Below, piece by piece: positions 22,129 to 52,527 of a DNA stretch of 64,000 nt; positions within the stretch are counted from its first letter, which is position 1; every line of letters starts with the position of its first letter. The DNA comes from Octopus vulgaris. Its lineage: Eukaryota. The translations under genes and the position numbers were made by a program. The stretch spans positions 33,170,001-33,234,000 of the forward strand of contig OX597821.1 in assembly GCA_951406725.2 (NCBI GenBank), in the 5' to 3' direction. The notes below the pieces were generated by a model. The model worked only from the letters and a program-made list of their open reading frames with translations. It made no database searches and was not told the origin of the DNA.

Positions 22129-22700
22129 AAATTGAGATAGGGGTTGTAAATGCAACCCTCCATGGGATAACATATATCCAATATACTGCTAGTGAAGTAC
22201 CCAACAAAGTTAATACATAAATGTTAAGGATTGCGATGCAATCAATTCATTTACTGTATTATATGGGCAAAGGTAAAATGATTTACCAGAAATTACTAAT
22301 ACAAGATAAGAAAATGGAGAAATACATCTAAATCAAATATCAATTACCAGATAATACTCAATCACATACTTTATTAAACCACCACCTAAGAGACTGTAGG
22401 GTTAAACATAAAAAAGCAGTACAAATCAGTGTACATAAAGGAATGTACATAAAAAAGTGTACATAAAAGAGTAATGTTATATAATAAGTAGAATATATAT
22501 AAAAAAGAGAATATAAATATTCTACTTATTATATAACATTACTCTTTTATGTACACTTTTTTATGTACATTCCTTTATGTACACTGATTTGTTCTGCTTT
22601 TTTATGTTTAACCCTACAGTCTCTTATGTGGTGGTTTAATAAAGTATGTGATTGAGTATTATCTGGTAATTGATATTTGATTTAGATATATTTCTCCATT
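22129..22700. mobile_element. (TA)n-adjacent element with a 184-bp near-perfect inverted repeat (possible Penelope-like relic)
   Basis: 22313-22496 is the reverse complement of 22517-22700 with only a few mismatches. Confidence 0.6.
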
Positions 22701-23097
22701 CGTCCAACCCATGCTAGCATGGAAAACGGACGCTAAATGATGATGATAATATATCATCATCATCATCATTTAACGTCCGTTTTCCATGCTAGCATGGGTT
22801 GGACGGTTTTGACTGAGGGCTGGCACCAGGCTCCAGTCTTGGTCTGGCAGAGTTTCTACAGCTGGATGCCCTTCCTAACGCCAACCACTCCGAGAGTGTA
22901 GTAGGTGCTTTTTACGTGCCACCTGCACGGGGGCCAGTCAGGCGGTACTGACAATGACCTCGCTCGAATCTTTTTACATGTGCCACCAACACAGGTGCCA
23001 GTGAAGCGACGTTGGTAATGATCACGCTCGAATGGTGCCCTTTTACGTGCCACGGGTATGGAAGCCAGTTGGCTGCTCTGGCAATAATAACGCTCGG
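22701..23097 (-). mobile_element. RTE LINE 3' UTR fragment (family C) with an inverted duplicate of its tail
   Basis: Matches 4761-5280; 22701-22747 is inverted relative to 22755-22805. Confidence 0.85.
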
Positions 23098-42290: not shown

Positions 42291-42624
42291 CAAGGAAACA
42301 TTTCTCTTCTGAAATCACACCTTACAGTCTTTAATCAAAGGGAATGATATATTAGATAACAAAGACTTGGATCGGTGGTTCCCAACCTGTAGTCCACGGT
42401 CCCTGATGAAGGCTAGTTGGCTGAAACCTCAAAACCACCACCACCACTCTGGGAGTGTTTATGGGGATGTTTGGGTAAAATATTTGCGAGAGTATGTGGG
42501 TGAATTGTATGTATATATGTGTGCGTATGTTTGTGTGTGTCAGTTTCTGTAAATATGTTTAATTTTGGGGAAACTTTTTTTATTTCAATAAAGTGTATAC
42601 ACACACACACACATATATATCTGA

Positions 42625-42992
42625 TTCGATTTCCATTGATCAAATCAGAATCGAAATCGATCAATGGAAATTGCAGCTGAGATACCAGTGCCAGTGGCAT
42701 GTGAGAGAACCATCCGAACGTGGCCGTTGCCAGCGCCGCCCCGACTGGCCTTGTGCCGGTGGCACATAAAAAGCACCATCCGATCGTGGCCGTTTGCCAG
42801 ACTCGTCTGGCACGTAAAAAACACCCACTACATTCATGGAGTGGTTGGCGTTAGGAAGGGCATCCAGCCGTAGAAACATTGCCAGATCAGACTGGGCCTG
42901 GTGCAGCCTTCTGGCTTCCCAGACCCCAGTTGAACCGTCCAACCCATGCTAGCATGGAAAGCGAACGCTAAACGATGATGATGATGATGATG
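42625..42992 (+). mobile_element. RTE 3' UTR fragment (family C)
   Basis: Family C repeats and (GAT)n tail. Confidence 0.88.
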
Positions 42993-43480
42993 TTCTGATG
43001 AAGGCATGTAGGTCGAAACTTCGATGTCACTGTTACTACTCTTCTTGTAAAAGTATAATGAATATGCATTCTGTAAAAAATGCTGAGTAATTCATCGCTT
43101 TAATATTGAGTTCTTTTTTATTATAACTTGTCTTAGAACCACACACACACACACACACACACACATGATAATTTTTTGTGCTAGTCATGTTTAGCATTAG
43201 ACCTGAATAAAAAAAAATCAATAACCTTAATTTGCTTTAATCTTTTTCCTTTACCCGAAATCGCCCCAAGTAAAGCCTGTATGTCATTTCTAGAGAAAAG
43301 ATCATGACAGAAGTGGAGACTGGCATAAAATCATTTGAATATTAAAAAAAAAAGATTGCGAGGGTTTTGGGTTTGCTAAAATATATTATAATGGTAAAAG
43401 ATTAGAAAGCGCTGATGTGTCTGTATGAGTCAATATTAGAAATCAATAATACGATATTATAAAATTACATATGTAATATT

Positions 43481-47635: not shown

Positions 47636-48340
47636 CTCTTTTACTATTTTATTTGTTTCAGTCATTTGACTGCAGCCATGCTGGAGCGCCATCTTTAGTT
47701 GAACAAATTTCAGCAACATGCAACCAAAAGAATACCCTCCATCAGGCATTTGCCATATCCTGAACGCCTTACTTCCCTGGGCATGGACACATTGAAACTC
47801 CGACGTCTGGCAGCTGACTTGGCAGACACCCATAAAATTATCGACCATCGCACAAACAATAACTCTGAGCACCTCTTCAAACTCCACCCATCTAACACCC
47901 GTGGACATATTTACAAAGTAAGAAAACAGCACAGCTCCCATGACTTCAGGAAACATTTTTTCACGCTGAGAGTTGCTGAAGCGTGGAACAAACTGCCGGC
48001 ATCGGTTGTTAGTTGTCGGAGCACTGCATCCTTCAAAACCTCCATGCTTCCTGAGATTCGCCAACACTACACTTGATACACACACAAGCATGTTCACTTT
48101 CCAGACATTTCTACATTGCTGCATGTACTTTATATGCACTTTCTGACAAGTTGTGGTGCACCTGAGCACTGTATACAATAATTTCATTATTATTATTAAA
48201 TCAACCCCAGGACTTTTTGTTTCTAAGCCTAGTACTTATTCTATAGGATTCTTTTGCTGAACTGCTAAGTTACAGGAAAGTAAACACACCAACATGGGTT
48301 GTCAAAGTGATGGTGAGGTGACAAACACAGTCACACAAAC
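47636..48340 (-). mobile_element. SINE family A 3' half, interrupted by a CR1 fragment
   Basis: 47636-47708 continues at 48198-48340. Confidence 0.8.
47709..48197 (+). mobile_element. CR1 LINE 3' fragment with (ATT)n tail
   Basis: ATKRIP..LPYPERL..L..RR..DL..TRGH.YK..FFTLRV..WNKLP; AAAT repeated at both junctions. Confidence 0.92.
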
Positions 48341-49808: not shown

Positions 49809-50099
49809 TGATAAACCTCTGGAAAGTTTTACAGATTTTTACAGTTCGAGTGATGGACTGGATTTGTAGTCTTCAAATCAGTTTTCTCCTCTCTTGTCTT
49901 GCGAAGCTTAATTTCTGAAGATTGGCATCTTGGCAGTATGTTACATATCCCAGTGCCCCAATAATTACAAGTATAAACCTGAACTTGTAACCTGGATAGA
50001 GTAGCTGTAGATACCTCAATAGTTTAGCATAGGTATTTTCTTTTTTGCTGATCTTTAGCTCTATGTTAACATCTGCTGGGCAGCTGATGTTTGTGTGTA

Positions 50100-50305
50100 T
50101 GTGACGACATGTGTACCATTGGTGATTTTTTTCTCCTCCATCTTCCCTTCTTTGGATCTTTCCTTTTCCTATGTTTCTGATGAAGAGCTCTGCTCAAAAC
50201 GTTAAACCCTCCTTCTTTCCTGAGTGTCCAATAATACTATACTTGTTTCATGTCCTCGCGTTGTTGTGTTTTCTCTTTGTGTTTTCATGTTTGGATTAAC
50301 TATGT
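50100..50305 (+). mobile_element. Small hammerhead-bearing (Penelope-like) repeat
   Basis: Diverged inverted copy at 51449-51655; contains CTGATGA-A-GAGC-tct-GCTC-aAAAC. Confidence 0.6.
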
Positions 50306-50565
50306 ATATATGTATGTATAACACAGGTGGGTTGCACTTCACTACAGCTGTTTCAGAGATGTTTTTAATTGATGCACAAAAGTGTTACCGCATGCAAAAT
50401 ATAAAAAAAAACATTTCAAGTTGGTATACGTATAAGTCCTTACTGTGGATTGAGACGTCCTTTAGTGAGAAATCTAGGTTAACCTTTTATATCTTAAGTA
50501 TCAGAAGCTTCATGGAAATATGCTTCCAAGGTAGACATAATATAAACATTTTCAGAATTAGAAAC

Positions 50566-50567
<2 letters not shown>

Positions 50568-50599
<32 letters not shown>

Positions 50600-50745
50600 G
50601 TTTAACGTCTGTTTTCCATGCTGGCATGGGTTGGACGGTTCAACTGGGGTCTGGGAAGCCAGAAGGCTGCACCAGGCCCAGTCTGATCTGGCAGTGTTTC
50701 TACAGCTGGATGCCCTTCCTAACGCCAACCACTCCATGAGTGTAG
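50568..50745 (-). mobile_element. RTE 3' end fragment (family C)
   Basis: (CAT)n followed by family C sequence. Confidence 0.85.
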
Positions 50746-50928
50746 TTATTATTATTATTATTATTGTTATTATTATTATTCATTTTGTTCAACGTGTACA
50801 AGTACGTATGTGTTCAATATTGTTTTATTCAATTTTAGAAAAACTGAAACATGTCATAGACAATTCTAGAACATATTGAACTTTGTGCATGACTTTTGGC
50901 TCATCCTGTATGGATGTATATGTATGTA

Positions 50929-50970
<42 letters not shown>

Positions 50971-50978
50971 TGTGTATA

Positions 50979-51409
50979 CAGGTAGTTAAATAGTAAAAAC
51001 ACCAAGGTAGAGTCGGTGACAGCGCACCTGTGTCATGACAATATATACTGATATATACATACTTACTAAAGTAAATACAGATTTTGTTCATCAACAGAAA
51101 ACATGTCTGAAACAGCTGTAGTGAATTGCAACCCATTTGTGTTATTATTTCTTCTTCACCTAAATGGGAACCTTCTATATATTTGGATATGAAGTCTGTA
51201 GTTGACTGTGGAATATGTGCAGTGAGTGTATCCCTGTATGACTTTGATGTCACGTTGGTATGCAGTCAGTTACTTGTGAATGTATGTATAATGGGAAGGA
51301 CAAATCTATATTTATATTATAAAGTACATGTATGTCAGTATACATTGTTTGTACACAGGCGCACTATCCCTGACTCTACCCCTTGGTGCTTTAATTATTT
51401 GAATACCCG
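50979..51409. mobile_element. Tc1/mariner-like MITE (degenerate)
   Basis: TA|CAGGTAGTTAAATAGTAAAAACACCAAGGTAGAGTC / GACTCTACCCTTGGTGCTTTAATTATTTGAATACCCG. Confidence 0.55.
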
Positions 51410-51448
51410 ATCCTTTCAAATACTGAAAGGATATATATATATATATAT

Positions 51449-51655
51449 AATTAATCCAAACATGAAAACACAAAGAGAAAACACAACAACGCGAGGACGT
51501 GGAACAAATATAGTATTATTGGACACTCAGGAAGGAAGGGAAGAAGGAGGGTTTAATGTTTCGAGTGGAGCTCTTCGTCAGAAACATAGGAGAAGGAAAG
51601 ATCCAGAGAAGGGAAGACAGAGGGAAAAAAATCGCCAACGGTACACACATGGTCA
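51449..51655 (-). mobile_element. Small hammerhead-bearing (Penelope-like) repeat, second copy
   Basis: Minus strand CTGACGA-A-GAG-ctcca-CTC-GAAAC; ends in (TA)n. Confidence 0.6.
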
Positions 51656-52527
51656 TGCTGTTAGAGACTTCTAGAGGCAGTCTTTGTAGCGCTTCCTCAG
51701 AGCTCCTCTCACTCAGTGGCCAGTGGAGAGTTCACCAAACAGGGCAATTTTTGGAAGGCAATGGTTCTCCATTATGGAGACATGCCCTGCCCATCGGTGG
51801 TGGTACTTCAGTAGCGTGGCTTCAATGCTGGGGATCTTGGCCCGCTCCAAGACTTCAATGTTTGTGACGAAGTCACTCCAGTGAATGTTGAGGATGGTGC
51901 AGAGACATCGCTGGTGGAAGATCTCGAGGAGACGGATGTGACAGCAGTAAATAATCCAGGTCTCTGAGACATAGAGAAGAGTGGTGAGAACCACGGCCCT
52001 GTAGACACTGATCTTTGTTTTGTTTTTCAGGCCACCATTGTGCCAAGCACGTTTGTACAATCTGCCAAAGGAGCTATTTGCCTTAGAAAGTCTATTGTCA
52101 ATTTCCTTGTCGATCCTTGCATTGGATGAGATGATGCAGCCCAGGTATGTAAGCTGCTGTATTGATTTCAGTTCGGTACCGCAGATAGTGATGTGGGGTG
52201 GGTGGTATTCCTCTTGGGGTGTAGGTTGGTGAAGTACCTCTGTTTTCTTGAGGCTGATCTCCAGGCCAAAGAGCTGCGAGGTATTTGCAAAGCAGGACGT
52301 GATGTGCCACACGATCTTCAACGCAGTCAGCAAGTTTGAAGAACAAAGAAGAGTCGCAGGAGGAAGGCGCGAGCCGCCTCTGACACCACACCGGATGTTA
52401 CCTTTGTCTGTGGACACTGCTCACGGACCTGCCTTTCCCATATTGGACTTGTCAGTCATGAGCGTGCATGTACGCGATGTGGACAGCCTTCCTGATCTTC
52501 GTTCGCGAAGCCGAACCATGATGATGA

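What the first reader, a model, noticed from the sequence alone, without database searches (positions are those of the whole stretch)
50100..51655. Inverted pair of small non-coding repeats, each carrying a variant minimal hammerhead ribozyme
Seen: 50100-50305 (+) and 51449-51655 (-) are diverged copies of a ~200-bp unit ending in (TA)n. The copies read gttt-CTGATGA-A-GAGC-tct-GCTC-aAAAC-GTT-aaac and gttt-CTGACGA-A-GAG-ctcca-CTC-GAAAC-ATT-aaac. That is the hammerhead core CUGANGA..GAAA with stem II, a short stem I, an extra A after A9 and almost no stem III. Known: Penelope-like elements and retrozymes carry minimal type I hammerheads that can cleave as dimers. Inference: a non-autonomous, microsatellite-associated, ribozyme-bearing retroelement family. 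Each copy carries one inactivating-looking change that the other lacks.
Basis: partly seen in the sequence, partly recalled or inferred. Interest (0 to 1): 0.72.

Follow-up and report, generated by a model that had tools for sequence, protein, structure and literature searches.

The report
Solo Penelope ends with minimal hammerheads
The two repeats are real, but they are two likely independent, decayed end pieces of an abundant Penelope-type jumping gene that carries an already published tiny hammerhead-ribozyme motif; the one curious point is that the most numerous subfamily in this genome has a core change predicted to weaken self-cutting.

Summary
Observation confirmed. The copies at 50099-50300 (+) and 51450-51656 (-) are 87% alike. 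Each holds a motif that fits the published minimal type I hammerhead of Penelope-like elements (PLEs) feature for feature; the extra A and missing stem III are normal for that class.
The unit is the pseudo-LTR of a PLE with reverse transcriptase and GIY-YIG domains (Neptune-type by motif), found at both ends of full-length copies elsewhere in the genome. It has at least 9,650 copies, roughly 20,000 by estimate.
Solo copies share a sharp 5' edge: 66 of 90 start 95-120 nt upstream of the predicted cut and none at the cut, so templates were uncut RNA. This fits published internal priming at the pLTR-ORF junction.
The two window copies differ at subfamily-diagnostic sites, so the inverted pair is likely two insertions. 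Their defects are CpG decay.
Twist: the commonest core is CCGACGA (U4C; 4,704 exact copies against 1,021 canonical), and copy B's canonical U4 is likely a CpG change from C.
The scan noted such solo ends and fixed core changes before, in this genome and others. Cleavage is untested.

The parts
50099..50300 (+). Copy A: solo pseudo-LTR of a Penelope-like element, canonical-core (U4) subfamily; begins about 105 nt upstream of the predicted cut, ends GGATTAAC
50173..50207 (+). Minimal type I hammerhead motif of copy A (C3 at 50177; G12 changed to A at 50196, a CpG site; predicted cut between 50203 and 50204); predicted inactive
   Evidence: sequence; family columns; published consensus
50301..50320 (+). 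TA/TATG microsatellite after copy A, likely the insertion target
50321..51430 (.). Spacer unrelated to the PLE: a common ATC-tailed repeat at about 50560-50745, microsatellites and two short inverted repeats
   Evidence: no match to the full-length element or its protein
51431..51449 (-). (TA)n after copy B, likely the insertion target
51450..51656 (-). Copy B: solo pseudo-LTR of an intermediate sub-lineage whose exact background mostly carries C4 (82 against 9)
51551..51585 (-). Minimal hammerhead motif of copy B (outer stem II pair broken at 51566, palindrome ACGT changed to ACAT at 51557; U4 at 51580 likely a CpG change from C)

Best explanation
The two repeats are solo pseudo-LTRs of an endonuclease-positive Penelope-like retrotransposon, likely inserted separately into TA repeats and likely made when the element's reverse transcriptase started just behind the 5' pseudo-LTR of an uncut RNA and ran off its 5' end. 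Shown: the unit flanks an RT-linker-GIY-YIG ORF in full-length copies; 3' ends are fixed at GGATTAAC(TT)(TA)n; 5' ends pile up 95-120 nt upstream of the predicted cut and none lies at the cut; a U4 and a C4 subfamily exist; the window defects fall at CpG sites. Inferred: transcription starts near an initiator-like TCATTC at the upper edge of the pile-up; the GIY-YIG domain nicks (TA)n; priming uses the UUUAUAUA that follows the 5' pseudo-LTR; the cDNA end is joined by short homology. The hammerhead would cut only as a dimer through its ACGU palindrome, probably with protein help, and is not needed to make these copies, which would explain why a U4C lineage could become the most numerous. Both window copies are likely inert.
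For: Walking upstream reached a CA-rich 3' UTR and then RT and GIY-YIG sequence. Of 20 ten-kb loci picked on the RT, 17 hold the unit downstream of or beside the ORF and 4 (L118, L130, L132, L133) have it in direct orientation on both sides. L133 has an 806-codon open frame with DKG, YIDD, CX4CxxC linker and CCHH GIY-YIG and 1,939 homologues with RT domains, best 54% identity. 5' ends of 90 copies taken in genome order: 66 at -120..-95, 22 shorter, 2 longer, 0 within 3 nt of the cut; 13 of 15 scorable U4 copies also sit at the boundary. Four ORF-linked 5' pseudo-LTRs run on into TTTATATAC. Frangieh 2024 (PMC11167929, main text read): internal initiation at the pLTR-ORF junction, hammerhead mutants do not affect insertion, uncut RNA is the main substrate. 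Subfamilies: 19 of 19 U4 in one class and 50 of 52 C4 in the other when classed without position 4; 6 changes on the tree against 23 shuffled, 0 of 500.
Against: No transcription start site was mapped; no raw RNA reads were available. The Pfam scores of the L133 frame are below the curated cut-offs. The in vitro model comes from a Poseidon-clade element whose start site is not homologous to the target, whereas here it looks TA-complementary. Second units within 3 kb were seen at 5 of 53 distinct loci, about 1 expected (one is a diverged sister copy), so pairs are somewhat clustered and 'independent' may mean separate hits on a favoured region. The hammerhead dimer is not the predicted minimum-energy duplex. 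Tree support is mostly weak.
Confidence: 0.72

Rival explanations
1. The 210-nt unit also spreads on its own, like a SINE: short RNAs from the promoter of 3' or solo pseudo-LTRs are copied in trans by the PLE protein.
For: Discrete length; only 2 of 90 copies extend beyond -120; PLE promoter sequences lie in the pseudo-LTR (PMC2377424, discussion read); dispersed monomers of PLE-derived retrozymes are described (bioRxiv 2026.07.22.740005, part 1 and passages).
Against: ORF-linked copies are spread among the solo copies in both subfamilies. Most solos start downstream of the initiator-like motif. In the published assay the template needed sequence beyond the priming site.
Confidence: 0.2
2. The copies are ordinary random 5' truncations, or come from a ribozyme-cut circular RNA, and the 5' pile-up is an RT stall or short-homology hotspot rather than the RNA's 5' end.
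For: 22 of 90 copies are truncated at scattered sites; 5' junctions often merge with TA or TG repeats; a circular template has been proposed for PLEs.
Against: The CA-rich sequence upstream offers more short homology yet is almost never reached (2 of 90); full-length L118 and L133 start in the same interval.
Confidence: 0.06
3. The inverted pair is one functional unit in which the two damaged ribozymes complement each other.
For: Only 1.15 kb apart; local pairs are somewhat more common than chance.
Against: Opposite strands cannot lie on one RNA in ribozyme sense. The copies differ at diagnostic sites, the defects are CpG transitions, the spacer is unrelated, and the usual PLE inverted structure is head-to-head, not tail-to-tail (PMC3846280 passages).
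Confidence: 0.02

Closest known systems
Minimal type I hammerheads (min-HHR) in pseudo-LTRs of metazoan Penelope-like elements (Cervera and de la Pena 2014, PMC4209133; parts 1-2 of 4 of the text and parts 1-2 of 3 of supplement file 2 read; file 1 not available)
   Same: Fits the consensus NNN CUGANGAH G..C GAAAN palindrome NUH NNN; 4-bp helix I, extra base after A9, C-G palindrome without loop 3, U-rich flanks; mostly single dispersed copies; opposite-strand pairs already noted there.
   Different: The majority core here is CCGACGA; no motif row of their figure S3 shows C at position 4. Their list has no cephalopod row.
Neptune-type endonuclease-positive PLEs (as defined in Craig et al. 2021, PMC8557442; passages read)
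   Same: RT with DKG, then CX2-5CxxC linker, then C-terminal GIY-YIG with CCHH; microsatellite targeting; pseudo-LTRs.
   Different: Clade placed by motifs only; no tree with reference elements. The 3' UTR is long and CA-rich.
Poseidon element PAc of Anolis (Frangieh et al. 2024, PMC11167929; main text read)
   Same: Priming about 90-100 nt behind the hammerhead cut, uncut RNA as template, hammerhead dispensable for insertion.
   Different: Here the ORF does not appear to start in the hammerhead, the priming site looks complementary to the (TA)n target, and no 30-40 nt tail was seen.
Non-LTR retrozymes (bioRxiv 10.64898/2026.07.22.740005, part 1 and passages; PMC7229834, search listing only)
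   Same: Short non-coding hammerhead-bearing units related to PLE pseudo-LTRs.
   Different: Retrozymes are defined by tandem arrays; these units are overwhelmingly single and match the pseudo-LTR of their parent PLE.

Membership tests
PLE minimal type I hammerhead | CUGANGA and GAAA core | tested here: met
   Met by the U4 subfamily (1,021 exact copies) and copy B; copy A has G12A; the larger subfamily has U4C (4,704)
PLE minimal type I hammerhead | Extra nucleotide after A9, G10.1-C11.1 pair, short helix I, palindromic 15.2-16.2 | tested here: met
   Columns in 113 copies against the published list
PLE minimal type I hammerhead | Lies in the pseudo-LTR of a PLE | tested here: met
PLE minimal type I hammerhead | Motif more conserved than flanks, stems covary | tested here: inconclusive
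   Between subfamilies 2 of 35 against 30 of 160 and 32 of 158 (p 0.08, 0.05), but 2 of 35 against 18 of 166 and 6 of 35 against 37 of 158 (p 0.5). Other families in the held DNA keep the core with different stems; no formal covariation test
PLE minimal type I hammerhead | Self-cleavage as a dimer | not testable with these tools
   Only energies computed
Endonuclease-positive PLE | Single ORF with RT and C-terminal GIY-YIG, flanked by direct pseudo-LTRs | tested here: met
   L118, L130, L132, L133; Pfam hits below cut-off; 1,939 homologues. None of this ORF lies in the window
Neptune clade | CX2-5CxxC linker plus CCHH motif, DKG | tested here: met
   L133 and L132 translations against definitions
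Neptune clade | RT phylogeny with reference elements | not tested
   No named reference sequences were in hand
Non-LTR retrozyme | Head-to-tail tandem arrays of the unit | tested here: not met
   5 of 53 distinct loci have any second unit within 3 kb; one locus picked on the RT (L118) has three units in a row, separated by TA
Non-LTR retrozyme | Abundant circular RNA | not testable with these tools
   No raw RNA reads

The most novel reading that the evidence does not exclude
The roughly 20,000 solo units are an in vivo record of both the RNA start and the internal priming site of a Neptune-type PLE, and the dominant lineage spread with a crippled catalytic core (U4C) while keeping the rest of the motif unchanged: the hammerhead fold is kept as a protein-binding or positioning element and cutting is dispensable.
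Probability: 0.35. Interest if true: 0.5.

Novelty: new member of a known kind. Interest (0 to 1): 0.28.

Why it matters
The motif and its setting are published, so the finding itself is ordinary. Its value is as a natural experiment on an open question, what PLE hammerheads are for. Two sister subfamilies with thousands of copies differ at one catalytic-core base, and copy ends show that the templates were uncut. This supports in vivo, in another clade, what was shown in vitro for one lizard element, and offers a clean U4 against C4 pair to assay.

Tried and rejected
Rfam scans: no hammerhead listed. Folding z-scores: not informative. Expression: no RNA holder listed; four contig sets were laid and cannot show starts, ends or strand; a few back-joints from the 5' UTR to the unit start were low-depth and not followed. 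Ribozyme-defined 5' ends: rejected, 0 of 90. U4 copies as mere CpG decay of C4: rejected for the main U4 subfamily (19 of 19), accepted as likely for copy B (9 against 82). Order of subfamilies: not resolved; the C4 class is slightly less diverged (3.1% against 4.4%, p 0.057) but U4 sister families attach inside the C4 side on a long branch. A cap-G mark at 5' junctions: not seen. A PLE ORF in the window: none. Lunse et al. 2017 (PMC5785218) and Ambros and Flores 1998 (PMC147498) were not held; the first lists many PLE hammerhead variants (recalled) and may already include U4C. Paper searches turned up no report of this family or of U4C in a PLE; Repbase and Dfam could not be searched.

Full report
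Observation. The sequence shows both motifs as described. The copies align inverted at 87%. Copy A spans about 50099-50300 (+) and copy B 51450-51656 (-). Searches of the window's own 2.8-Gb genome gave 5,343 and 3,789 first-look candidates, of which 40 each were scored. A 35-nt degenerate pattern has 9,650 matches and a 3'-side pattern 7,731, both with 0 in the reversed control. In the first 33.45 Mb of contig 1 the two lists hold 100 and 78 places with 37 shared (counted by hand), which gives roughly 20,000 copies. The host looks octopus-like from its repeats; that is recalled and echoed by earlier notes, not tested.

The motif. Family copies read GUUU C(U/C)GACGA A GAGC UCC GCUC GAAAC GUU AAAC (113 copies, enriched for neighbours of the window copies). 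Cervera and de la Pena 2014 (PMC4209133; parts 1-2 of 4, supplement file 2 parts 1-2 of 3) define this minimal hammerhead, including the base after A9, the short helix I and the palindromic 15.2-16.2. They report that most motifs are single, probably truncated PLEs, that some lie close together on opposite strands, and that cleavage needs dimers and is weak. Rfam does not detect copy A and folding z-scores are flat. The window defects (A: G12A; B: outer stem II pair and G16.2A) are transitions at CpG sites of the family majority, so they are decay after insertion.

The parent. Some copies extend upstream. Following them led through a CA-rich region of 1-2.5 kb to RT and GIY-YIG sequence. Of 20 loci picked on the RT, 17 carry the unit and 4 carry it in direct orientation on both sides of the ORF. 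L133 has an 806-codon open frame; L132 has 626. The protein has DKG, YIDD, a CX4CxxC linker and a CCHH-type GIY-YIG, the Neptune-type layout by the definitions in Craig et al. 2021 (passages). Pfam hits are below cut-off, but 1,939 homologues of the same architecture were found. No part of the ORF lies in the window. The unit is therefore a pseudo-LTR.

Why the unit has a fixed size. I took the first 90 of 7,731 matches to a 3'-side pattern, in genome order, and mapped their 5' ends. 66 start 95-120 nt upstream of the predicted cut, 22 are shorter, 2 longer, and none starts within 3 nt of the cut. The upper edge falls at an initiator-like TCATTC (label recalled). Full-length L118 and L133 start in the same interval. 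3' ends are GGATTAAC followed mostly by TTTA (31) or TATA (30) among 75 scored, and four ORF-linked 5' pseudo-LTRs continue into TTTATATAC. TA-type repeats flank 77 of 90 3' ends and 70 of 90 5' ends against 19% background. Frangieh et al. 2024 (PMC11167929, main text) showed for a lizard PLE that RT starts internally at the pLTR-ORF junction, that hammerhead mutants do not affect insertion and that uncut RNA is the main substrate. Applied here, priming behind the 5' pseudo-LTR and run-off at the RNA start would yield this unit. The RNA start is inferred, not mapped.

Two subfamilies and the core change. Exact 35-mers: 4,704 with CCGAYGA and 1,021 with CTGAYGA. In the first 100 of 9,650 matches (by hand): 66 C4 and 2 U4 on one background, 28 U4 and 4 C4 on the other; G5A, the CpG partner change, occurs in 5 of 70 C4 and 0 of 30 U4 copies. 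Classed without position 4, the split is 19 of 19 U4 and 50 of 52 C4, with 8 further copies in small or unclear classes. With position 4 masked, the label needs 6 changes on a 109-row tree against 23 shuffled (support mostly weak). Most ORF-linked copies, including both long open frames, carry C4. Copy A belongs to the U4 subfamily. Copy B has an intermediate background in which C4 outnumbers U4 82 to 9, so its canonical look is likely a CpG change, though a short-lived U4 master is not excluded. Perreault et al. 2011 (PMC3088659, passages and section 8) state that U4C lowers activity considerably in vitro yet still permits viroid infectivity; the primary paper was not held. The rest of the motif stays nearly unchanged between subfamilies, a weak signal (p 0.05-0.5). 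Which subfamily came first is unresolved.

The pair. The copies are tail-to-tail, 1.15 kb apart, differ at diagnostic sites and enclose unrelated repeats. The typical PLE inverted structure is head-to-head (PMC3846280 passages). Second units occur at 5 of 53 distinct 3-kb loci, two of them tail-to-tail, against about 1 expected, so some clustering exists. Two insertions is the likely reading.

Novelty. Minimal hammerheads in PLE ends, solo ends and microsatellite targeting are known. Seven paper searches found no account of this family or of U4C in a PLE, but Lunse 2017 and supplement file 1 of PMC4209133 were unavailable and may bear on that. Earlier notes of this scan describe solo Penelope ends with fixed core changes in this genome and similar cases in others; they are unchecked and I reached the reading before seeing them. 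Verdict: new member of a known kind, interest 0.28.

Noticed in passing
window 42393-42440 (+), 42989-43035 (+), 53440-53395 (-): Three more CUGANGA...GAAA motifs with a plausible stem II, from other sequence families; probably ends of other PLE families.
   Followed up: no
L133 (-) near 2380, L165 (-) near 1691, L130 near 1535 and 1005, L120 near 7346: Hammerhead-like motifs with the U3-A8 core covariant, some with a CCGG or similar palindrome in helix III.
   Followed up: no
L046:2320, L049:1173 and 1100, L126:9703: A hammerhead family with palindromic helix III CAATTG and stem I CCAC/GTGG; two copies in L049 are inverted.
   Followed up: no
L007, L029, L038, L054, L201, L207 (5' junctions): 6 of 14 copies that begin exactly at the upper 5' edge carry a C where long copies have T; unexplained, not a cap-G signature.
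   Followed up: partly
window 50318-50381 with 51082-51145, and 50981-51084 with 51301-51407: Two short inverted repeat pairs (88% and 75%) between the copies, possibly decayed MITE ends.
   Followed up: no
window 51713-52420 (-) and 47699-48076 (+): Open frames of 235 and 125 codons that look like 3' parts of LINE ORFs (RTE-like and CR1-like, recalled); no Pfam hit. Copy B's 5' end lies about 55 nt from the first.
   Followed up: partly
L035, L047, L048, L062, L064 (contig 17): A segmental duplication family sharing one insertion with C3T, in which position 4 differs between duplicates (C or T), as CpG decay would give.
   Followed up: partly
L118:7807-8668 and L133:3544-3732: L118 ends in three head-to-tail units separated by TA runs. 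In L133 a unit is fused directly to ORF sequence, replacing the 5' UTR seen in L118 and L132, so its 806-codon frame starts inside the unit.
   Followed up: no
window 22696-22811: A near-perfect 116-nt palindrome formed by two tail-to-tail copies of a common ATC-tailed repeat.
   Followed up: no
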